DNA from: a phage
Sequence record: PQ724392.1
Direction: 5' to 3' (one strand)
DNA length: 64,000 nucleotides
A model generated the notes under the pieces. The model had not been told where the DNA came from and did not search any database. It saw nothing but the letters and a program-made list of their open reading frames with translations. Position numbers and translations under genes: made by a program. Positions within the stretch are counted from its first letter, which is position 1. The number at the start of each line of letters is the position of its first letter. This document shows, piece by piece, positions 1-62,712 of the stretch.

Positions 1-2025
1 AGTGGTAACCCAAAAGCTGTTTGTTATAAGATGGATGCAATTGATGGTGAAGTATTTGCATTAATCACGGGGGAAGTAAAAGAAGAGCGACAAGACCCGA
101 CTAAACCTGAAAACGTTGTCGATTCGTTATCTAAGGGCGTTTATAAATTAAATGCTGACACCGATACATGGACACGAGTTTTTGGTAACACAGAGGATGA
201 ACGTCGACGTATTGAACATGGTTACACAAGCATGTCAACCGACGGAATTGAACTTTTTATCAGTTCAAGTAACTTCCGTTATTCCGTAGAGCCGGATACT
301 GAACTCCCTGCTAAGTATCCTGAAGAAGTTAACGAAGCAGTCAAATATGTGTATGACGAACAATGGATACATGACAAGCATTATTTGATGATGAGTTTTA
401 GGTCGAATAAAGATTCAGGTTGGGAAGAGTTTAAACCTGGCCGTATGTCATATTACGCTGAACCGTTCTTTAACTGGTCTCGTCGTGATGATACTCGTTG
501 TTGGATTACTACGTCAGACAGAGCTCTGGTTGTATATAATGACATGCTATATCAAAAGATTATCGATACCTTTGGTGGTTCATCCCCTGAACGTATTGTA
601 CACGAATACTGGAATAAAGGTCAAGTAAAAGTTACTTCTCCTAACATCGAATTCAATGGCTTTAAAAAATACGCCTCGGGTATTATGTTACACAAAAATA
701 CTGGAGAGCTTATTGGTTATTTTGAATTTGACTATCGTAAACGTGATGAAGTTAGATTAATCTGGAAACCGAAAGAAGTTATGTTCACTGCAGAATTACA
801 GAACCAGGAACATGATATTCCATGGACCCCAGATAATGACGAACAAGAGAAAGACCCAGACTTGCGTCCTCTTTTAACAAAGATGGTTCCGGATAGTTAT
901 TTGCTCCAGGATAGCAACTTCGAAAAATTCTGTGAATATTATTTGCAGTTTATCAGTGATGGCTCTGGTACCTATTATAACAACCTTTTGAACTTGATTC
1001 GCAACCAGTACCCGCGCGAGGAAGATGCATGGGAATACCTTTGGAGCGAAATGTACAAAAGAAACATATATTTGTCAAAGACCAAGCGCGACGAAGTAGT
1101 TCGTTTCTTTGAAGCAAGACAGTCTGATTTTTGGGCAACTAAGGGGACTGAAGCATCCTATAAATTTTTGTTCAAATTGTTATATAATGAAGACGTTGAA
1201 ATCGATATTGAATCCAAGAACGGAACCGAGTATGACATAATCGTCGAATCTGATAACATCAGCGAAGATATTGTTGGACAAACAATTTACACACCAACTG
1301 GTCGCAGTAACGTTACCTATATGGAACGTGACTACAAACAGGGTAAATTGAGATGGCGTATCACGATTCATAACTTACTTGGTCGCTTTATTGTTGGGCA
1401 AGAAATTAAATCCGAAAGGACTTCCTTTGAAGGCATGATTGTTCAGGGTGTTCGTGGGAAAGAATTACTTAGCAACAACATCGATTATATCAACCGAAAT
1501 CGTTCTTACTATGTAATGACCATTAAATCAAGTCTCCCAACATCTCGTTATCGTAATGACGTATTGCGATTTGTTCATCCGGTTGGATTTGGATTCGTTG
1601 GAATTACATTATTGACAATGTTTGTTAATGCAGGTCTGTCATTAAAACATACAGAAACCATTATCAATAAACTGAACAACTATCGTTGGTCGTCAGGTAT
1701 TCCGTCAGAATGGTGCGACCGTATCGCAGTTATTGGGGCCGATGGAAACATTGAGCATAGTCCTGTTACAGGTGAAGCAGTATATAATATTGCTCCTAAT
1801 GCAGGTTTACCATTCCCATTACCAGCAGATTATGATGCCGAAAACGATTTTTCGGATTTTCATGGGACTCTCCCGTCTGAACGTCGTAAAAAATACAGTC
1901 CATTGTTTGACCAGTCTGCCGTGACTTTTGCTAACTGGCGCAATTTGGTTAATCAACGTCTTAAGGATGATATTGGTAATCCACGCGACCCGAAAGAACC
2001 CACACAGGTAAAGGTAAATGAATAA
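1..2025 (+). CDS. 7: Baseplate wedge protein gp7, C-terminal ~670 codons; the frame is open to the window edge, so the gene is 5'-truncated
   Basis: Frame-1 ORF with no stop from base 1; lies directly upstream of gp8-gp12 in T4 order; T4 gp7 is ~1032 aa. Confidence 0.75.
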   Translation, partial: SGNPKAVCYKMDAIDGEVFALITGEVKEERQDPTKPENVVDSLSKGVYKLNADTDTWTRVFGNTEDERRRIEHGYTSMSTDGIELFISSSNFRYSVEPDTELPAKYPEEVNEAVKYVYDEQWIHDKHYLMMSFRSNKDSGWEEFKPGRMSYYAEPFFNWSRRDDTRCWITTSDRALVVYNDMLYQKIIDTFGGSSPERIVHEYWNKGQVKVTSPNIEFNGFKKYASGIMLHKNTGELIGYFEFDYRKRDEVRLIWKPKEVMFTAELQNQEHDIPWTPDNDEQEKDPDLRPLLTKMVPDSYLLQDSNFEKFCEYYLQFISDGSGTYYNNLLNLIRNQYPREEDAWEYLWSEMYKRNIYLSKTKRDEVVRFFEARQSDFWATKGTEASYKFLFKLLYNEDVEIDIESKNGTEYDIIVESDNISEDIVGQTIYTPTGRSNVTYMERDYKQGKLRWRITIHNLLGRFIVGQEIKSERTSFEGMIVQGVRGKELLSNNIDYINRNRSYYVMTIKSSLPTSRYRNDVLRFVHPVGFGFVGITLLTMFVNAGLSLKHTETIINKLNNYRWSSGIPSEWCDRIAVIGADGNIEHSPVTGEAVYNIAPNAGLPFPLPADYDAENDFSDFHGTLPSERRKKYSPLFDQSAVTFANWRNLVNQRLKDDIGNPRDPKEPTQVKVNE

Positions 2026-3022
2026 TTCATCTGTAGTTTATCGTTCGATAATTACCTCGAAATTTCGAACTGAAAAAATGTATAACTTTTATAAAATGAT
2101 TGGTAACGAGCCCGACCAGAATACGATGTATGTAACATTCGGTCGTGCTGAACCCTGGGCTTCGAATGAGAATGACCCGGGGTTCGCCCCTCCTTATCCG
2201 GTTGATACAGCACAAGGTGTTGAAGATACTTGGACCAATATGATGGGGGCAGTCAAAGTTTATAAATCAATGCTTGATTGTGTTGTCCCACGTAAAGACT
2301 GGGGCGATATCAGATATCCTAATCCGCTTAACTTCCAGGTAGGGGAAATTGTTGTAGCTAACAGTGCTCCATATAACCGAACTGATGTTGGTAAAGGTTG
2401 GATGGTTTATCGTTGTGTAGATGTTCCTGATGTTGGGACTTGCTCCATTTATTCCATTATCAATAAAGAAGAGTGCTTAAAACTCGGTGGTAAATGGACG
2501 GCAGAATATAACTCGACGAGAGCTCCGGCAGGGACTGGCGACACTGAAGGACGAGTTGATATGGGCGATGGTTATCTATGGGAATATTTGTATGAGATTC
2601 CGCCTGATGTATCCATCAACCGTTGTACTAACGAATATATTGTTGTTCCATGGCCTGAAGAAATCGAAGAAGACCCGTCACGTTGGGGTTACAAAGACAA
2701 TATCAGCTGGCAACAAGATGATTTCGGTTTAATATATAGAATCAAAGGATATACAATCAGATTTAAAGCATTTATGGATTCCATTTACTTCCCAGAATTC
2801 AGTCTCCCGGGAAACAAAGGCTTCCGACAGCTGTCGATTATATCCAACCCACTTGAAGTTAAAGTACATCCTAATGACCCAAATATCAAAGCAATCAAAG
2901 AATACTACGATGCAATTGATTTGGACCGTCATTCTGGGGAAATGATTTATATGGAAAACCGCCCACCAATTATTCGTGCAATGGACCAGACAGAAGAAGT
3001 TAACATTATTTTTGAATTCTAA
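2018..3022 (+). CDS. 8: Baseplate wedge protein gp8
   Basis: 334 aa, same length as T4 gp8; ATGAATAA overlap with the gp7 stop; position in the wedge cluster. Confidence 0.8.
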   Translation: MNNSSVVYRSIITSKFRTEKMYNFYKMIGNEPDQNTMYVTFGRAEPWASNENDPGFAPPYPVDTAQGVEDTWTNMMGAVKVYKSMLDCVVPRKDWGDIRYPNPLNFQVGEIVVANSAPYNRTDVGKGWMVYRCVDVPDVGTCSIYSIINKEECLKLGGKWTAEYNSTRAPAGTGDTEGRVDMGDGYLWEYLYEIPPDVSINRCTNEYIVVPWPEEIEEDPSRWGYKDNISWQQDDFGLIYRIKGYTIRFKAFMDSIYFPEFSLPGNKGFRQLSIISNPLEVKVHPNDPNIKAIKEYYDAIDLDRHSGEMIYMENRPPIIRAMDQTEEVNIIFEF

Positions 3023-3956: not shown

Positions 3957-5767
3957 TGAAACAGAATTTAAAAATTGGCAATATGGTTGATGATGGTACT
4001 GGTGATTACCTTCGTCTCGGCGGTCAAAAAATAAATAATAACTTTGATGACCTTTATTATCAGCTAGGGGACGGTGAAAATCCCCATGCAGCTGGTGCAT
4101 GGAAAACTTGGACTACGCAAGAAGGCACCGAGTTGTCCGCTGTTATGGGTCGAAGCTATACCATCGATACATCAGCCGGTGCAGTTCGAGTTATCCTTCC
4201 AAAAGGAACAACTCAAGAATACAATTATGTAATTCGCTTGCGTGATGTGTTTGCTACCTGGCAAATCAACCCGGTGACAATTGTTCCTGCAGTTGGGGAT
4301 ACGATTAAAGGCTCACCGAATCCAGTAGAAATTAAACGCAACTTAGCCGACCTTGAACTTGTATATTGTTCACCCGGTCGTTGGGAATATATCGATAATA
4401 AACAAGTCGATAAAATTTCAAATAACGACGTTGCCACAGTTGCATCCCAACAGTTTATTGCCACCGAAGGACAAACTGACTTTATCAATGTGTTTGGTGC
4501 TATTCCATATAGCGTATCGAACTTAGAAGTCAAACATCGTGGTAACGACCTGTTTTATGGTAAAGATGATATTTTCGACCCGGTGAATGCTGAATTTGGT
4601 TCCCCTGGTGCAAACCCTGGTGAAATCGTTGCGCTTGATGGTAAAAGCATCCGTCTGAAAATGCCATGTGCTGAAGGTGATACTGTTATCATCCGAACAT
4701 TTAATGATGGTATTGCTCAATGGCGTAGTTCGTATAATCGTCGTGATATACTTGTTCGTAGTCAAGACAGGACCAAAGAAACAACAATTAATGGTTCTTT
4801 GATTGTTACAGATTTGACAACCAAACACACCTTTACAATTGAAGAACTTGGTATTTCTCCGGGTAGCCCAATTAACCCAAACGCATGTCAGGTATTCATT
4901 AACAGTATTTTGCAACATCAAGCTGGTACTGCGGGAACTCCAGTATTTTATTGTGAAGGTGCACAAGGTTCTACTGCTGCAGAATGTAGTGCAAATGGTG
5001 GTAGCTGGTCTGAATCAAACCAGGATTATTTGCTGCAATTTGATGATGATAACCGTATCGAAGGCATTAGCATTTACCGTGAATTTGAAGACGGTGATAT
5101 TCTGTCAGTCATTTGGTACAATAACGATATCGGCACAACTATGACCATGGATGAAATCCGTGATGAGACTGATACTCTTTATGTTTCTCAGGGAAATACG
5201 TTGAGCCTAACCGGTCGTGTGCGTATTACAGATTTTGATAATCCGTTTGCACCAAACGTTGAACCAGTCGGTCTTCAGGAAGTTGTTCCATCTTCTGTTG
5301 GCGCTATCTTTGAATTATTCTATCCGGTCGGTACAATTTACGAAAATACGGTTAACCCAAATAACCCGGTTACTTATATGGGATTTGGTTCATGGAAACG
5401 TTTGAAAGAACGTGTAATTGTTGCCTGGTCAGACGACCCTGCCTCAAACTTCCATACAAACAATAATGACCTGGATTCTGGTGGTAACCCACAAGCGACA
5501 GCAGGTGGTACAGGTGGTAGCGTTGAAGTTCATATTAAAGATATAAACGTACCTAAACTTGAAACTGATGAGAAGGTTTTAGTTGTTGATGATAATGGTC
5601 CGATTGTTGTCGGTGGTTGTCAGGTAGACCCAGATGCACAAGGTCCAGCCTATACCAAATACAGAGAAGACAAAGCCACCATTAATCAGGCGCAAGACCC
5701 TCAAGCTCAACCGGTTTATACAATGCCTCCATATTTGATTGCTCATCGCTGGGTAAGGATTGCTTAA
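3956..5767 (+). CDS. 10: Baseplate wedge protein gp10
   Basis: 603 aa (T4 gp10 602 aa); TAATG overlap with the gp9 stop. Confidence 0.8.
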   Translation: MKQNLKIGNMVDDGTGDYLRLGGQKINNNFDDLYYQLGDGENPHAAGAWKTWTTQEGTELSAVMGRSYTIDTSAGAVRVILPKGTTQEYNYVIRLRDVFATWQINPVTIVPAVGDTIKGSPNPVEIKRNLADLELVYCSPGRWEYIDNKQVDKISNNDVATVASQQFIATEGQTDFINVFGAIPYSVSNLEVKHRGNDLFYGKDDIFDPVNAEFGSPGANPGEIVALDGKSIRLKMPCAEGDTVIIRTFNDGIAQWRSSYNRRDILVRSQDRTKETTINGSLIVTDLTTKHTFTIEELGISPGSPINPNACQVFINSILQHQAGTAGTPVFYCEGAQGSTAAECSANGGSWSESNQDYLLQFDDDNRIEGISIYREFEDGDILSVIWYNNDIGTTMTMDEIRDETDTLYVSQGNTLSLTGRVRITDFDNPFAPNVEPVGLQEVVPSSVGAIFELFYPVGTIYENTVNPNNPVTYMGFGSWKRLKERVIVAWSDDPASNFHTNNNDLDSGGNPQATAGGTGGSVEVHIKDINVPKLETDEKVLVVDDNGPIVVGGCQVDPDAQGPAYTKYREDKATINQAQDPQAQPVYTMPPYLIAHRWVRIA

Positions 5768-46192: not shown

Positions 46193-46561
46193 TTATGCGA
46201 CTTTACTCCAATTATCTAAATTTAATTCACCCTTAGCTTTCATTTTTTCAATCAGAAGGTCTGCAGTGGTGCGACCATTTTGATACCATGTAACATCTTC
46301 AGAATAACCAGTTTCTTCATCTTCATAGGTCTTACAACAAATCTTACCCAAAATCAAAGTTTTCAGTTCGTAGGTATCACCAGTAAAAAAGTTTGTTACC
46401 ATAATTTTCCAAGAGAAGTCATCAGAAGGACCTTCAGGAGTCATGCAACCAACAAATTCAAACTGTTCTTTATACAAGTGCCATTGCATCTCTTTAGTTT
46501 CAATGGCTTTGTAACCGTCGTGGTCTTTACCTTTGATGTATGAGTTAAGATTGATTTTCAT
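46193..46561 (-). CDS. Hypothetical protein (122 aa); cargo of a PeSL-like early-promoter cassette
   Basis: Preceded by TGTACA-N17-CATAAT and the conserved leader ...CCATACTGAGTTACACAATAAAACACTGGAGCATAAAATG. Confidence 0.5.
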   Translation of the reverse strand: MKINLNSYIKGKDHDGYKAIETKEMQWHLYKEQFEFVGCMTPEGPSDDFSWKIMVTNFFTGDTYELKTLILGKICCKTYEDEETGYSEDVTWYQNGRTTADLLIEKMKAKGELNLDNWSKVA

Positions 46562-46602
46562 TTTATGCTCCAGTGTTTTATTGTGTAACTCAGTATGGAA
46601 TC

Positions 46603-46631
46603 ATTATGCACTGGTCAAATCCTGTTGTACA
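46603..46631 (-). promoter_or_regulatory. PeSL-like early promoter upstream of ORF 46193-46561
   Basis: On the - strand: TGTACA-N17-CATAAT plus the conserved leader; a terminator lies immediately upstream. Confidence 0.55.
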
Positions 46632-46643
46632 CCCTTTTATGAA

Positions 46644-46670
46644 AATAAAAAAGGGACTCCGAAGAGTCCC
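46644..46670 (-). terminator. Terminator after the 53-aa ORF, upstream of a PeSL promoter
   Basis: GGGACTC-CGAA-GAGTCCC hairpin with a T-run on the - strand. Confidence 0.6.
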
Positions 46671-50903: not shown

Positions 50904-51092
50904 AATGTTCTTCCAAGAAGGCCAAGAGTTCTGGAGCGGATTTAAAGATACCGCCATCGACCTTGTCTTCATCTTTATAGTCCATTACATCCAGGCCAAT
51001 ACGTCCATCAGTTAAAGGCCATACGCTGAAAAAGTATTCGTAACGTTTTTCAATTTCTTCGATTGTACGAAAAATCTTTTCGATATTATTCA

Positions 51093-51093
<1 letters not shown>
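50896..51093 (-). CDS. Hypothetical protein (~65 aa)
   Basis: Start moved to the internal ATG at 51093, which overlaps the pseT stop (TAATG). Confidence 0.35.
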
Positions 51094-52311
<1,218 letters not shown>

Positions 52312-52315
<4 letters not shown>

Positions 52316-52800
52316 ACGCCAAGCTCCTTATAAAGTTCTTCGCGACAAGTTTTAAGGATTTTACCAGTTTCATAAGCTGCGCTTTCAGAAACATCACCAA
52401 GTGTAGCGGCAGCTTGCATTTGTCCATGACGTTTAGCCGCGTATTCAAAACTTTTTACTAGCTCACGAATACGTTCTTTTTCATTGTATTCTTCAATGAA
52501 TTCTGGGTATTCCCAAACAGGTCGCATCATACGATACCAATGCTGAATAGTAATATAATTACTTCCATCCAGATTAATAATTTGTGAAGGCTTAATAGCA
52601 CCCGGAGCATAAAAAGTTACCTGTCTTACTACATCAATACCGTCCACCATAGCCCAAGCAAAATCAAAAGTTGCCTTCTTTTCAATTGGTGTACTTGCAC
52701 AGGACCCTAATTTTAAGAGCTTTTGTAATGCAGGGGATTTAACACCTGAAATGTATTCAGGATTAGCTACAAAAGAATTGTCACGTAAAGTCATAGTCAT
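52312..52800 (-). CDS. Hypothetical protein (162 aa); PeSL-cassette cargo inserted between the spanin genes and the pseT.1-like gene
   Basis: Internal ATG at 52800 with a GAGGAA Shine-Dalgarno; directly preceded by TGTACA-N17-TATAAT with the conserved AAAGTAGTGTACA upstream block. Confidence 0.45.
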
Positions 52801-52828
52801 TTCCTCAAATTTTATAATCCGTAGGAGC

Positions 52829-52857
52829 ATTATACTCTGCTCCCATGAGTTTGTACA
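52829..52857 (-). promoter_or_regulatory. PeSL-like early promoter upstream of ORF 52312-52800
   Basis: On the - strand: AAAGTAGTGTACA-N17-TATAAT; the -10 sits in a GGAGCA...TGCTCC hairpin. Confidence 0.5.
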
Positions 52858-52961
52858 CTACTTTCCAAAAAGACCTTGAACACATAAAGTGGCCGCAATT
52901 CCAAAACAAAAACAGAATGCGCCAAATCTAACAATATCCCAACCAAGGCTACATGTCTCTA

Positions 52962-53252
52962 TCATTTGCAACGTTCCTCTTTTAGTTCAGAACGATAATA
53001 ACATAACATACCTTTTTGGTCATGTACATACCTTTTTACATCATTCATCCAAATCCGGAATTCTTGCGATGCTTCAAAAGGCATACCAACCCAGGCTTGA
53101 CCATCAATTACCTTAACTTCCCATTTCTGTTTGTAATCAGCCAATGCAACAGGCCAATTAGGATGAACTTGGATTGTGGGCTCCACAACGGGCTTCTGGG
53201 CACATGAAACGAGTCCAATAGCCAAACATACTGCCATGATAGATTTCATCAT
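52962..53252 (-). CDS. Outer-membrane spanin lipoprotein (o-spanin, PseT.2-like)
   Basis: N-terminal lipoprotein signal with lipobox (MMKSIMAVCLAIGLVSC); about 96 aa; directly downstream of the i-spanin with overlapping stop/start. Confidence 0.7.
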   Translation of the reverse strand: MMKSIMAVCLAIGLVSCAQKPVVEPTIQVHPNWPVALADYKQKWEVKVIDGQAWVGMPFEASQEFRIWMNDVKRYVHDQKGMLCYYRSELKEERCK

Positions 53253-53602
53253 TTGGTGAGCTCCTGGAAGTCCTGGGCGAACTTATCAAAAGACTGATTA
53301 ATCTGTTTTTCAACTAATTTAGGCTTCGCTACCACAACCTTAGTACGTTTTGCATCTGCACGGAGTTTATCATTTTCCTTCTGTAGGAGTTCAACATATT
53401 CCTGACGCTCCTGGTCAAGGAGATTAATTTGATTAATCTGGTCTTTTACTGATTGCAGATTTTTCGCGTTATCTTCTGCAACTTTGGTGACTTCCGCCAC
53501 CGCCGTCTTGAGATTATCTACTTTTGCTTTTAGATAGAAACCACTACCAGCAGTTACTACCAGGGCGAGCATAAGCCCTGCAGTGAGATTACTTATTTGC
53601 AT
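53249..53602 (-). CDS. Inner-membrane spanin (i-spanin, PseT.3-like)
   Basis: 117 aa; N-terminal transmembrane helix followed by charged coiled-coil sequence; paired with the o-spanin as in T4. Confidence 0.7.
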   Translation of the reverse strand: MQISNLTAGLMLALVVTAGSGFYLKAKVDNLKTAVAEVTKVAEDNAKNLQSVKDQINQINLLDQERQEYVELLQKENDKLRADAKRTKVVVAKPKLVEKQINQSFDKFAQDFQELTK

Positions 53603-54096
53603 AACTTGATGATTACCTCAACAATATCATCCTGGGATAAACCATTCAGGAGGATGTGATTTGTACTGTCAGATGCTGAAATGCGGAACTGATTACCAAC
53701 TTCATCCGCCATATCATCCTGGGTTAACACTGGGTGTTTAATCCCCAGGCGGTGTTGAAGTGTCAGGGGTTCAACCACAACATAACAAACACATCCATTG
53801 ATATGTACATTAGGTTGGGTCTGGTTAATGAACACTTCTGCATCATATTTAACCAAATGGTTCTTTAAGAAGTCAACCATTTCAGGAACAGATTCATGCA
53901 GTGCTTCTTTCCGCTCTTCTGATTTTTTATCACGATATTCTTTTTGTTTCGCCTTCAACTTTTTATTGGAGGCGAGTTTTTTCCGCAGGTCAGTCATGAG
54001 ACCAATTTTCTTGGTCCCTTTATAGACATAAATTCCGTCATGACGGTCACCATATTCATTGACAATCATTTCGTTTGAAATCAGTTGCATATCCAT
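53593..54096 (-). CDS. alc: Alc-like protein (candidate host transcription-elongation inhibitor), assigned by synteny and size
   Basis: Internal ATG at 54096 (GAGGAAA Shine-Dalgarno) gives 167 aa, the length of T4 Alc; located between rnlA and the spanins as alc is in T4. Confidence 0.5.
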   Translation of the reverse strand: MDMQLISNEMIVNEYGDRHDGIYVYKGTKKIGLMTDLRKKLASNKKLKAKQKEYRDKKSEERKEALHESVPEMVDFLKNHLVKYDAEVFINQTQPNVHINGCVCYVVVEPLTLQHRLGIKHPVLTQDDMADEVGNQFRISASDSTNHILLNGLSQDDIVEVIIKLCK

Positions 54097-54109
54097 AATA
54101 TTTTCCTCA

Positions 54110-54343
54110 TTAGTAGCGGTTGTAACCTCTAGGGCCAAAAGAGTTGGCACCCAGGCGTTCATCTTTCTTTTTGGCTCTTGCTCTAAACCCAGAATCACTT
54201 GTTTGAGCTTTCAATTCTTTTAACAATTTGGCCTTCAGGTCAGTAATGAAACCAATCCGGCGGTCTCCCTTGTAGACATAGATTCCATCATTTCTGTCAC
54301 CATATGCCTGTGTAACTCTGTCATTTGTAATTAAGTTTAACAT
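54110..54343 (-). CDS. Truncated paralog of the Alc-like N-terminal region (77 aa); PeSL-cassette cargo
   Basis: Shares YGDR(N/H)DGIYVYKG.(R/K).IG(F/L)(I/M)TDL(K/R)(A/K)KL with the N-terminus of the adjacent alc-like gene; internal ATG at 54343 with GAGGA Shine-Dalgarno; preceded by TGTACA-N17-CATAAT. Confidence 0.45.
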   Translation of the reverse strand: MLNLITNDRVTQAYGDRNDGIYVYKGDRRIGFITDLKAKLLKELKAQTSDSGFRARAKKKDERLGANSFGPRGYNRY

Positions 54344-54374
54344 GTTTTGGTCCTCATCAGTAGTTGATGGAACC

Positions 54375-54403
54375 ATTATGTATAGAAAGAAGGGGCTTGT
54401 ACA
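54375..54403 (-). promoter_or_regulatory. PeSL-like early promoter upstream of the Alc-fragment ORF
   Basis: On the - strand: GGGGTGTACAAGCCCC (the -35 TGTACA inside a short GGGG/CCCC stem), N17, CATAAT. Confidence 0.5.
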
Positions 54404-62139: not shown

Positions 62140-62379
62140 TCACGCTTTCTTGGCAACTTTCCAGTCAGCTTTAAATTGGTCAACGTCAGAGTGGTAAATC
62201 CAGAAACCGGATGAGCTACCATCTTCATAAAGAGGACAACCATCACACTCATCTTTCCAACCCATTTCACACAAAGCTTGTTCAGCTTTTTCCAGAGCTT
62301 CTGGATTGTTACCTTGGATTGTGAAGTACCATTTGCCTTTAACTTCTGAATCTTTGATGCTCTCACGTTGTAATTTCAT
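62140..62379 (-). CDS. Hypothetical protein (79 aa) with a CxxC motif; PeSL-cassette cargo
   Basis: Preceded by TGTACA-N17-CATAAT and the conserved leader CCATACTGAGTTAACAACTAAAACACTGGAGAATAAAATG; contains ECDGCP. Confidence 0.45.
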   Translation of the reverse strand: MKLQRESIKDSEVKGKWYFTIQGNNPEALEKAEQALCEMGWKDECDGCPLYEDGSSSGFWIYHSDVDQFKADWKVAKKA

Positions 62380-62420
62380 TTTATTCTCCAGTGTTTTAGT
62401 TGTTAACTCAGTATGGGACC

Positions 62421-62449
62421 ATTATGTCATAGCCCCATTTGGTTGTACA
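62421..62449 (-). promoter_or_regulatory. PeSL-like early promoter upstream of ORF 62140-62379
   Basis: On the - strand: AAAAAAGTAGTGTACA-N17-CATAAT plus the conserved leader. Confidence 0.55.
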
Positions 62450-62457
62450 CTACTTTT

Positions 62458-62712
62458 TTAAATTTTATCAAGCCATTTGCCAAGTTTAATCATTTCCTTG
62501 TTGGCTTTTTCCATACTTCTGAACTTAACTAATAAAGGATATGTATCTACACCCATAACAAGATTGGTTGCAAGACTGTGCTCACCCACAAGCCATAATG
62601 AGTAGGTTTGAACATCCAGACCATAATTTCTGTCTTTATGCAAACGCACACCCATCACTTCAAATTGTTCACTGGCTTTTTCCACTGCATCCAGGAAATC
62701 ATCTTTAGTCAT
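62458..62712 (-). CDS. Hypothetical protein (~84 aa)
   Basis: Track ORF begins at TTG; start moved to the internal ATG at 62712, directly downstream of the preceding stop. Confidence 0.4.
   Translation of the reverse strand: MTKDDFLDAVEKASEQFEVMGVRLHKDRNYGLDVQTYSLWLVGEHSLATNLVMGVDTYPLLVKFRSMEKANKEMIKLGKWLDKI

What the first reader, a model, noticed from the sequence alone, without database searches (positions are those of the whole stretch)
52312..52865. Cassette-driven 162-aa gene inserted between the spanin pair and the pseT.1-like gene
T4 order is alc, i-spanin, o-spanin, pseT.1, pseT. Here an extra 162-aa ORF with no motif I recognise sits between the o-spanin and the pseT.1-position gene, directly behind a PeSL-type promoter whose -10 lies in a short hairpin. 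It is a clear accessory insertion in an otherwise syntenic block.
Basis: partly seen in the sequence, partly recalled or inferred. Interest (0 to 1): 0.5.

Follow-up and report, generated by a model that had tools for sequence, protein, structure and literature searches.

The report
Uncharacterised early accessory gene, T4-like phage
This is a real, conserved small phage gene of unknown function that T4 lacks; it sits behind a resident early promoter in a gene-shuffling hot spot of T4-like phages, which makes it an ordinary but uncharacterised accessory gene.

Summary
A minus-strand gene (52312..52794, 160 aa; 162 aa from the ATG at 52800) lies between the o-spanin and the genes before pseT. 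It sits behind a sigma-70-type early promoter (TGTACA-N17-TATAAT) whose -10 box is inside an 8-bp hairpin. T4, RB69 and RB49 lack the gene at this locus.

The interpretation needs three corrections:
- The 106-aa downstream gene is not a PseT.1 homologue. It belongs to the RB69 ORF231c / JS98 ORF217 family.
- The promoter-hairpin does not travel with the gene. The same element drives the 106-aa gene in RB69 and SP18, where the 160-aa gene is absent from start codon to start codon.
- The gene is not a one-off insertion. It is the first gene after the o-spanin in all 25 carrier loci checked (at least 7 Tevenvirinae genera), and tblastn finds it in 263 phage records. It is under strong purifying selection (dN/dS 0.04-0.13).

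The parts
52312..52794 (-). Coding sequence of the 160-aa protein (phrog_4482 family). The stop TGA (52314..52312) overlaps the ATG of the next gene (ATGA). In 162-aa numbering, residues 1-98 form the N-terminal alpha/beta domain and residues 99-162 the helical hairpin.
52803..52806 (-). Shine-Dalgarno GAGG, 8 nt upstream of the conserved start ATG 52794 and 2 nt upstream of ATG 52800.
52829..52857 (-). Sigma-70-type early promoter: -35 TGTACA (52857..52852), 17-nt spacer, -10 TATAAT (52834..52829).
   Evidence: same element in VR7, SP18, JS98 and RB69
52822..52845 (-). 8-pair stem-loop (UGGGAGCA, loop GAGUAUAA, UGCUCCUA) that encloses the -10 box. The core GGGAGCAGAGTATAATGCTCC is identical in VR7, SP18, JS98 and RB69. 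Together with the promoter it forms a PeSL-type element.
51995..52315 (-). Downstream 106-aa gene with an overlapping start (phrog_2364; JS98 ORF217 / RB69 ORF231c family). It is not a PseT.1 homologue.
51093..51998 (-). pseT, polynucleotide kinase/phosphatase; the last gene of the overlapping run 160-aa gene, 106-aa gene, pseT.
52858..52965 (-). 35-aa hydrophobic micro-ORF. Its ATG overlaps the o-spanin stop and its stop abuts the -35 box, so it fills the apparent intergenic spacer upstream of the promoter.
52962..53252 (-). o-spanin (T4 pseT.2 equivalent), the upstream boundary of the variable slot.

Best explanation
The feature is a real, conserved but dispensable early gene of T4-like phages (family phrog_4482). 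It lies in a gene gain-and-loss hot spot between the o-spanin and pseT.

Shown:
- It lies 28 nt or more downstream of a resident sigma-70-type early promoter that is combined with a stem-loop (PeSL type).
- A conserved SD/ATG at 52794 precedes it, and its stop overlaps the start of the 106-aa gene, which in turn overlaps pseT.
- It is a member of a phage-restricted family that keeps the same slot across genera.
- It evolves under purifying selection.
- The predicted architecture has two domains: a generally basic N-terminal alpha/beta domain with five strands and three helices and no PDB neighbour, and a C-terminal antiparallel helical hairpin.

Inferred:
- Host RNA polymerase transcribes it in the first minutes of infection, starting near 52822, as the first gene of a unit that continues into the 106-aa gene and pseT.
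- The protein is cytoplasmic.
- It most likely works by binding rather than catalysis. The N-domain, with its conserved loop G32-S-C-x-x-T-P-L-E-K-K-A-T-F, would recognise a host macromolecule (protein or nucleic acid). The hairpin, with facing conserved glycines G126 and G146, would act as a scaffold or oligomerisation element.
- The outcome would be a host-takeover or counter-defence effect that helps only in some hosts, which would explain the repeated natural losses.
For: Real and coding:
- Full-length PHROG match, E 1.5e-72.
- tblastn matches in 263 phage records.
- dN/dS 0.04-0.13 in both domains across 28 allele pairs.
- AlphaFold pLDDT 88.8 for the full protein and 92.4 (pTM 0.83) for the N-domain.

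Early promoter:
-.
- VR7, JS98 and RB69 carry TTTACA-N17-TATAAT, which fits the T4/PST PeSL promoter consensus TTTACW-N17-TAYWAT (PMC4122927). The window's TGTACA differs from it at one base.

Conserved slot:
- It is the first gene after the o-spanin in every one of 25 carrier loci, with 0-4 variable genes before pseT.

Dispensable:
- SP18 lacks exactly the ORF and keeps the promoter.
- P0054 is an in-frame internal-deletion remnant, and CUA3 keeps only residues 107-162.

Phage-restricted:
- Only 27 clusters at 50% identity among 1.84 billion representatives; 24 of them are small phage-type proteins and 3 are weak Ig-repeat matches.
- All 18 IMG/VR loci lie on contigs of 155-178 kb.
- No relative was found in one genome per 185,579 bacterial and archaeal species (pattern-limited scan).

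Non-enzymatic:
- Only G32, K42 and P66 are invariant across the family.
- No significant Pfam, NCBIfam, PADLOC or PDB-sequence match.

Fold:
- The only strong BFVD matches are uncharacterised proteins of T4-like phages.
- The N-domain is basic in most members, pI about 8.5-9.9.

Allele exchange:
- Against JS98, DNA identity falls to about 40-48% across the N-domain coding part, while the promoter and the C-terminal part are 80-97% identical.
Against: - No experiment or annotated relative says what the protein does. Binding, host target and counter-defence are inferred only from small size, early promoter, lack of catalytic-type conservation and patchy distribution.
- Early timing rests on a consensus match. 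In the 2.7-kb local scan the number of promoter-like sites was not above shuffles (6 versus 7.0). The enrichment appears only for the specific motif over the whole window.
- The stem-loop has no U-tract. It shows no covariation because it is identical in all relatives. The spacer as a whole is no more stable than shuffles (z 0.16).
- Within one allele type both domains are under purifying selection, so there is no sign of an arms race at that scale.
Confidence: 0.6

Rival explanations
1. One reading: a recent insertion of a mobile PeSL cassette, in which promoter, stem-loop and ORF moved together into an otherwise T4-like block.
For: - A PeSL-type element lies directly upstream.
- The gene is absent from T4, RB69, RB49 and SP18.
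- The element is almost identical in RB69, JS98, VR7 and the window, while the flanking genes diverge. That fits a conserved recombination substrate.
Against: - The same promoter-hairpin is present without the gene in RB69 and SP18, where it drives the 106-aa gene.
- No second PeSL flanks the gene. Its stop overlaps the next start.
- The presence/absence junction runs from ATG to ATG, at a shared TATGA.
- The gene holds the same slot in at least 7 genera at identities as low as about 20-30%, and behind different spacer elements in Moonvirus, Karamvirus and Gelderlandvirus.
Confidence: 0.15
2. The protein is an RNA-polymerase secondary-channel factor of the Gre type. Its helical hairpin, with the acidic tip G135-D-V-S-E-x-A-A-Y, would mimic the GreA tip G40-D-L-K-E-N-A-E-Y.
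For: - Weak matches to GreA models: NCBIfam E 0.099 on residues 123-147, and Pfam GreA_GreB_N in 2 of 26 members, best E 0.011.
- The tip motifs resemble each other by eye against E. coli GreA.
- The gene lies near alc, a transcription inhibitor.
Against: - hhalign of the family against GreA gives probability 0.8% and does not align the tips.
- The tip varies in length and sequence across the family.
- A profile search of PDB sequences found nothing at E up to 10.
- Domain order is reversed relative to Gre factors.
Confidence: 0.04
3. It is functionally tied to its neighbours: either an RNA-binding helper of the PseT tRNA-repair pathway, or a cytoplasmic regulator of the spanin lysis step.
For: - It is always adjacent to the o-spanin and upstream of pseT on the same strand.
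- It forms an overlapping-gene run with pseT in the window.
- The N-domain is basic, with sub-threshold resemblance to small SH3-like barrels.
Against: - Zero to four unrelated genes lie between it and pseT.
- SP18, T4 and RB69 keep pseT and the spanins without it.
- It has its own promoter and no membrane segment.
Confidence: 0.1
4. It is a spurious or decaying ORF with no function.
For: It is lost or truncated in several natural isolates.
Against: dN/dS of 0.04-0.13, conserved length across genera, a conserved start and SD, and a confident structure prediction.
Confidence: 0.02

Closest known systems
PHROG family phrog_4482 (for example VR7ORF239c / YP_004063920, Merlin gp247, phiR1-RT g225 and g223); all annotated as hypothetical proteins
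   Same: Full-length profile match (E 1.5e-72), the same length of about 155-165 aa, and the same slot directly after the o-spanin.
   Different: Nothing distinguishes the window copy from the family. The family itself has no known function, no Pfam model in the copy searched and no solved structure.
PeSL elements (promoter-early stem-loops) of T4-type phages: Arbiol et al. 2010 (PMC2839356), Comeau et al. 2014 (PMC4122927)
   Same: A sigma-70-like early promoter, a stem-loop overlapping the -10 box (a common placement in those papers), a position directly upstream of the SD and start of an ORF of unknown function in a variable region, and several similar copies in the genome.
   Different: No flanking second PeSL. 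The natural presence/absence junction is at the start codons, not in the PeSL. The element stays in place when the gene is absent. Promoter and terminator activity were not tested.
T4 PseT.1 (phrog_2347; PF26888 in precomputed annotations)
   Same: It occupies the same o-spanin-to-pseT slot. Its first helix shares the motif [LI]-[RK]-x-L-I-x-x-x-E-x-A-A-x-x-x-G with helix 1 of the C-terminal hairpin (hhalign P 0.0005, probability 32%). PseT.1 is the top-scoring segment for the family profile in both the T4 and the RB69 loci, although neither score is significant.
   Different: PseT.1 is 75 aa with no N-terminal domain. The second helix does not align. The PseT.1 profile does not find the window protein. 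Both genes coexist in five loci. Homology is not established.
RB69 ORF231c / JS98 ORF217 (phrog_2364); relevant to the neighbouring 106-aa gene only
   Same: 59% identity over 106 aa, and the same promoter-hairpin upstream in RB69.
   Different: It is a neighbour of the 160-aa gene, not a relative of it.

Membership tests
phrog_4482 (uncharacterised T4-like phage protein family) | Full-length match to the family profile | tested here: met
   E 1.5e-72; residues 3-162 against profile positions 1-162 of 162.
phrog_4482 (uncharacterised T4-like phage protein family) | Conserved genomic slot: first gene downstream of the o-spanin, upstream of pseT | tested here: met
   All 25 carrier loci examined.
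PeSL (promoter-early stem-loop) | Sigma-70-like early promoter hexamers with a spacing of about 17 nt | tested here: met
   TGTACA-N17-TATAAT, 10 of 12 matches. The motif occurs 7 times against 1.17 expected.
PeSL (promoter-early stem-loop) | Stem-loop within or overlapping the promoter | tested here: met
   An 8-pair stem encloses the -10 box. It has no U-tract, and no covariation is available.
PeSL (promoter-early stem-loop) | Located directly upstream of the SD and start of a variable ORF of unknown function | tested here: met
PeSL (promoter-early stem-loop) | Gene flanked by two PeSLs, with indel junctions inside them (mini-circle model) | tested here: not met
   There is no downstream element because the genes overlap. 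The SP18 and RB69 junction is at the start codons, and the promoter is retained.
PeSL (promoter-early stem-loop) | Measured promoter and terminator activity | not testable with these tools
   Needs reporter fusions or transcript mapping.
T4 PseT.1 family (asked of the 106-aa neighbour) | Sequence similarity to T4 PseT.1 | tested here: not met
   BLASTP finds no alignment at E up to 100. The two fall in different PHROGs, 2364 and 2347.
T4 PseT.1 family (asked of the C-terminal hairpin of the 160-aa protein) | Profile-profile similarity over the domain | tested here: inconclusive
   hhalign P 0.0005, probability 32%, helix 1 only. An earlier run without RB69 gave P 0.0025, and its reversed-sequence control gave P 0.42.
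Gre-factor-like secondary-channel proteins | Similarity to the GreA/GreB N-terminal coiled coil with a conserved acidic tip | tested here: not met
   hhalign probability 0.8%. The tip is not conserved in the family.
Known anti-phage defence proteins (PADLOC models) | Significant match to a PADLOC model | tested here: not met
   Only SduA at E 0.024 on the helical hairpin.

The most novel reading that the evidence does not exclude
The family would be a phage-only host-interaction module: a new-fold N-terminal recognition domain that is swapped between lineages as whole alleles (the JS98 type versus the window type), joined to a conserved helical hairpin. T4 PseT.1 and the stand-alone 59-87-aa hairpin ORFs would be N-terminally truncated paralogues of it. 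That would give the unexplained T4 gene pseT.1 a family and an origin, and would mark the o-spanin-to-pseT slot as a locus for counter-defence or takeover factors.
Probability: 0.2. Interest if true: 0.5.

Novelty: new member of a known kind. Interest (0 to 1): 0.3.

Why it matters
The practical value is modest. It adds a clearly delimited, uncharacterised early gene family to the list of candidate host-takeover or counter-defence genes of therapeutic T4-like phages. The family is restricted to phages, has a confidently predicted domain with no structural neighbour in the PDB, and comes with natural knock-out isolates (SP18 and probably TH41 and UPEC01).

It also corrects annotation. The likely start codon is 52794. 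The neighbouring 106-aa gene is not pseT.1. RB69 ORF231c is probably annotated too short.

Finally, it gives a concrete case in which a conserved PeSL-type promoter stays in place while genes are exchanged exactly between start codons. That refines the PeSL shuffling model.

Tried and rejected
- **Sequence libraries.** Pfam, NCBIfam, PADLOC and PDB-sequence searches gave nothing significant for the protein or for 26 family members.
- **Other structure libraries.** BFVD returned only uncharacterised T4-like proteins. The afdb50 library was unavailable.
- **Gre-factor idea.** Rejected by hhalign.
- **Ig-repeat matches.** Three proteins of 1231-1566 aa matched profile positions 28-68 at E of about 2e-4 to 8e-4. 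I treat these as a repeated beta-hairpin motif inflated by repeat number, not as homology.
- **ToxIN escape paper.** The deletions in Serratia T4-like phages (PMC5449768) lie in the tRNA region, not at this locus.
- **phiR1-RT toxicity screen.** PMC6893735 does not mention g223 or g225.
- **AV110 Emp.** Emp (gp94) lies next to a MotA-like regulator gene in AV110 and is a different gene.
- **Accession searches.** Literature searches for the family accessions found nothing.
- **Locus search with the wide alignment.** It failed for lack of conserved stretches. The narrower alignment worked.

Full report
**Origin of the window.** The region 51000-54400 is 97.7% identical to Escherichia phages TH22, TH55 and UPEC07, and 88-95% identical to the Gaprivervirus phages VR20, VR26, VR7 and VR25. 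All genes discussed here are on the minus strand.

**The observation.** The ORF listing gives an ORF at 52312..52830. Three in-frame ATGs are possible.
- ATG 52830 (172 aa) lies inside the -10 box.
- ATG 52794 (160 aa) is 8 nt after it. VR7, SP18 and JS98 have an ATG only at this position, and most homologues begin M-T-L-R.

I therefore take 52312..52794 as the gene. Residue numbers below follow the 162-aa form used in the alignments.

**Promoter and hairpin.**
- The promoter is TGTACA (52857..52852), a 17-nt spacer, then TATAAT (52834..52829).
- An 8-pair stem-loop at 52845..52822 encloses the -10 box.
- The motif TKTACA-N17-TATAAT, with at most one mismatch, occurs 7 times in the window, all on the minus strand, against 1.17 expected.
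- A family of six 50-nt copies is found at 40-64 kb.
- Four of the eight promoter copies folded carry a hairpin over the -10 or -35 box.
- This fits the published description of PeSLs: a strong sigma-70-like early promoter plus a stem-loop that often overlaps the -10 box, directly upstream of an ORF of unknown function (PMC2839356; PMC4122927).
- The stem-loop has no U-tract. The spacer as a whole is no more stable than shuffled sequence (z 0.16). The hairpin is identical in all relatives, so there is no covariation to test.

**Comparison with T4, RB69 and RB49.**
- T4 has alc, pseT.3, pseT.2, pseT.1, pseT with overlapping genes and no spacer. A profile of the family finds nothing significant in T4 130-142 kb.
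- RB69 has pseT.2, pseT.1, then the same promoter-hairpin (TTTACA-N17-TATAAT with GGGAGCAGAGTATAATGCTCC), then ORF231c, ORF230c and pseT.
- RB49 goes straight from pseT.2 to pseT.
- The 106-aa gene downstream in the window shows no similarity to T4 PseT.1 (different PHROGs). It is 59% identical to the RB69 ORF231c product.

**Distribution and synteny.**
- tblastn finds the protein in 263 of 50,697 phage records, under Klebsiella, Escherichia, Enterobacter, Serratia, Salmonella, Citrobacter, Yersinia, Erwinia and other host names.
- Only 57 of those records are named Escherichia phages. I infer that T4-type and RB69-type coliphages as a group lack the gene; only the T4, RB69 and RB49 loci were checked directly.
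- In 25 carrier loci the order is always alc, i-spanin, o-spanin, this gene, then 0-4 variable genes, then pseT. These loci include Gaprivervirus, Dhakavirus, Jiaodavirus, Moonvirus, Tegunavirus, Karamvirus and Gelderlandvirus.
- True pseT.1 follows the gene in five loci.
- phiR1-RT has two paralogues. An EcS1-like contig has an extra hairpin-only copy.
- An exhaustive profile search of 1.84 billion representatives found 27 clusters. Twenty-four are small phage-type proteins and three are weak Ig-repeat matches.
- A pattern-limited scan of one genome per 185,579 bacterial and archaeal species found no relative.

**Gain and loss.**
- SP18 lacks exactly the ORF. Its sequence runs GAGGAAATTATTATG|AAAGAG, joining the start codon of this gene to the second codon of the 106-aa gene. 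The promoter, hairpin and SD are intact. The two junctions share TATGA.
- TH41 and UPEC01 cover only 86% of the 3.4-kb query, a shortfall of about one gene length. I did not confirm which part is missing.
- P0054 is an in-frame remnant, residues 1-28 joined to the last 14. CUA3 keeps only residues 107-162.
- The gene is therefore dispensable and repeatedly lost, and the promoter is resident rather than part of a mobile unit.
- With RB49 empty, and T4 and RB69 carrying other genes in the slot, the direction of change relative to T4 cannot be decided here.

**Evidence that it codes for a protein.** Pairwise dN/dS among eight alleles of the window type is 0.04-0.13, and it is similar in both domains.

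**The JS98 allele.** Against JS98, DNA identity is 97% over the promoter. It falls to about 40-48% across the N-domain coding part and returns to 80-97% from 52482 onwards. Some phages with JS98-like spanins carry the window-type allele at 91-94% identity. Whole N-domain alleles have therefore been exchanged between lineages.

**The protein.**
- No Pfam, NCBIfam, PADLOC or PDB-sequence match is significant.
- Every homologue that carries a name is called hypothetical, conserved hypothetical or uncharacterised.
- AlphaFold gives pLDDT 88.8 for the full protein. Strands are at 9-11, 44-52, 55-64, 73-76 and 92-94. Helices are at 14-19, 23-29 and 85-91. A hairpin of helices 99-133 and 139-160 follows.
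- The full model matches only generic helical hairpins. In BFVD it matches only uncharacterised proteins of T4-like phages.
- Across 26 diverse members only G32, K42 and P66 are invariant. The best-conserved stretch is the loop G-S-C-x-x-T-P-L-E-K-K-A-T-F. Glycines 126 and 146 sit on the two hairpin helices at similar distances from the turn.
- The N-domain is basic in most members.
- I infer a non-enzymatic binding protein. This is inference, not a result.

**Leads that did not hold.**
- The hairpin tip G-D-V-S-E-S-A-A-Y resembles the GreA tip G-D-L-K-E-N-A-E-Y, and weak GreA model matches appeared. However, hhalign gives 0.8% and the tip is not conserved in the family.
- Helix 1 of the hairpin resembles helix 1 of PseT.1. 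hhalign gave P 0.0025 in the first run, and the reversed-sequence control for that run gave P 0.42. Adding RB69 gave P 0.0005 and probability 32%.
- The PseT.1 profile aligns to the same site in six divergent members. PseT.1 is the top segment for the family profile in both the T4 and RB69 loci.
- This points to a possible distant relationship but does not establish one.

**Verdict.** The insertion story needs correcting as described above. This is an uncharacterised member of a known kind of feature: an early ORF of unknown function behind a PeSL-type promoter in a hyperplastic region of a T4-like genome.

Noticed in passing
window 52858..52965 (-): A 35-aa hydrophobic micro-ORF (MIETCSLGWDIVRFGAFCFCFGIAATLCVQGLFGK). 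Its ATG overlaps the o-spanin stop (ATGA) and its stop abuts the -35 box. Frame and position are kept in Gaprivervirus and Dhakavirus relatives, with 54-100% identity by tblastn and the same 35-aa length wherever the full ORF was read. Other genera carry different small hydrophobic ORFs of 23-32 aa right after the o-spanin. It is unannotated in VR7, SP18 and JS98.
   Followed up: partly
window 54110..54376 (-), next to alc (53593..54096): An 88-aa ORF that duplicates the N-terminal part of Alc. A 65-nt direct repeat links 54017-54081 and 54267-54331 at 71% identity. VR7 and SP18 annotate a second 'inhibitor of host transcription' at this position.
   Followed up: no
L029 (RB69) 5554..5616 (-): RB69 ORF231c is annotated as 78 aa. 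The similarity to the window's 106-aa protein spans 106 aligned positions (5616-5320), and an ATG behind the same promoter and SD lies at about 5614. The annotated start is therefore probably too far downstream.
   Followed up: partly
L004 (JS98, EF469154) 2480..2944: The JS98 homologue of the 160-aa gene is not annotated in the original JS98 record. The record shows an empty gap of about 625 nt between pseT.2 and ORF217.
   Followed up: partly
L007 (phiR1-RT) 1789..2265 and 2495..3001; L025 2989..3147: The family has tandem paralogues. phiR1-RT carries g225 and g223. An EcS1-like contig carries a hairpin-only extra copy. Stand-alone hairpin ORFs of 59-87 aa exist elsewhere (P0041, P0050, P0053).
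   Followed up: partly
window 46556..46644 and 62374..62462 (-): Two 89-nt copies, 75% identical, of a longer promoter-plus-leader unit that belongs to the same early-promoter family. They could serve as substrates for recombination.
   Followed up: no
window about 51093, compared with L001 and L002: VR7 and SP18 carry a MobE-like homing endonuclease gene of about 700 bp on the opposite strand, just downstream of pseT. The window lacks it.
   Followed up: no
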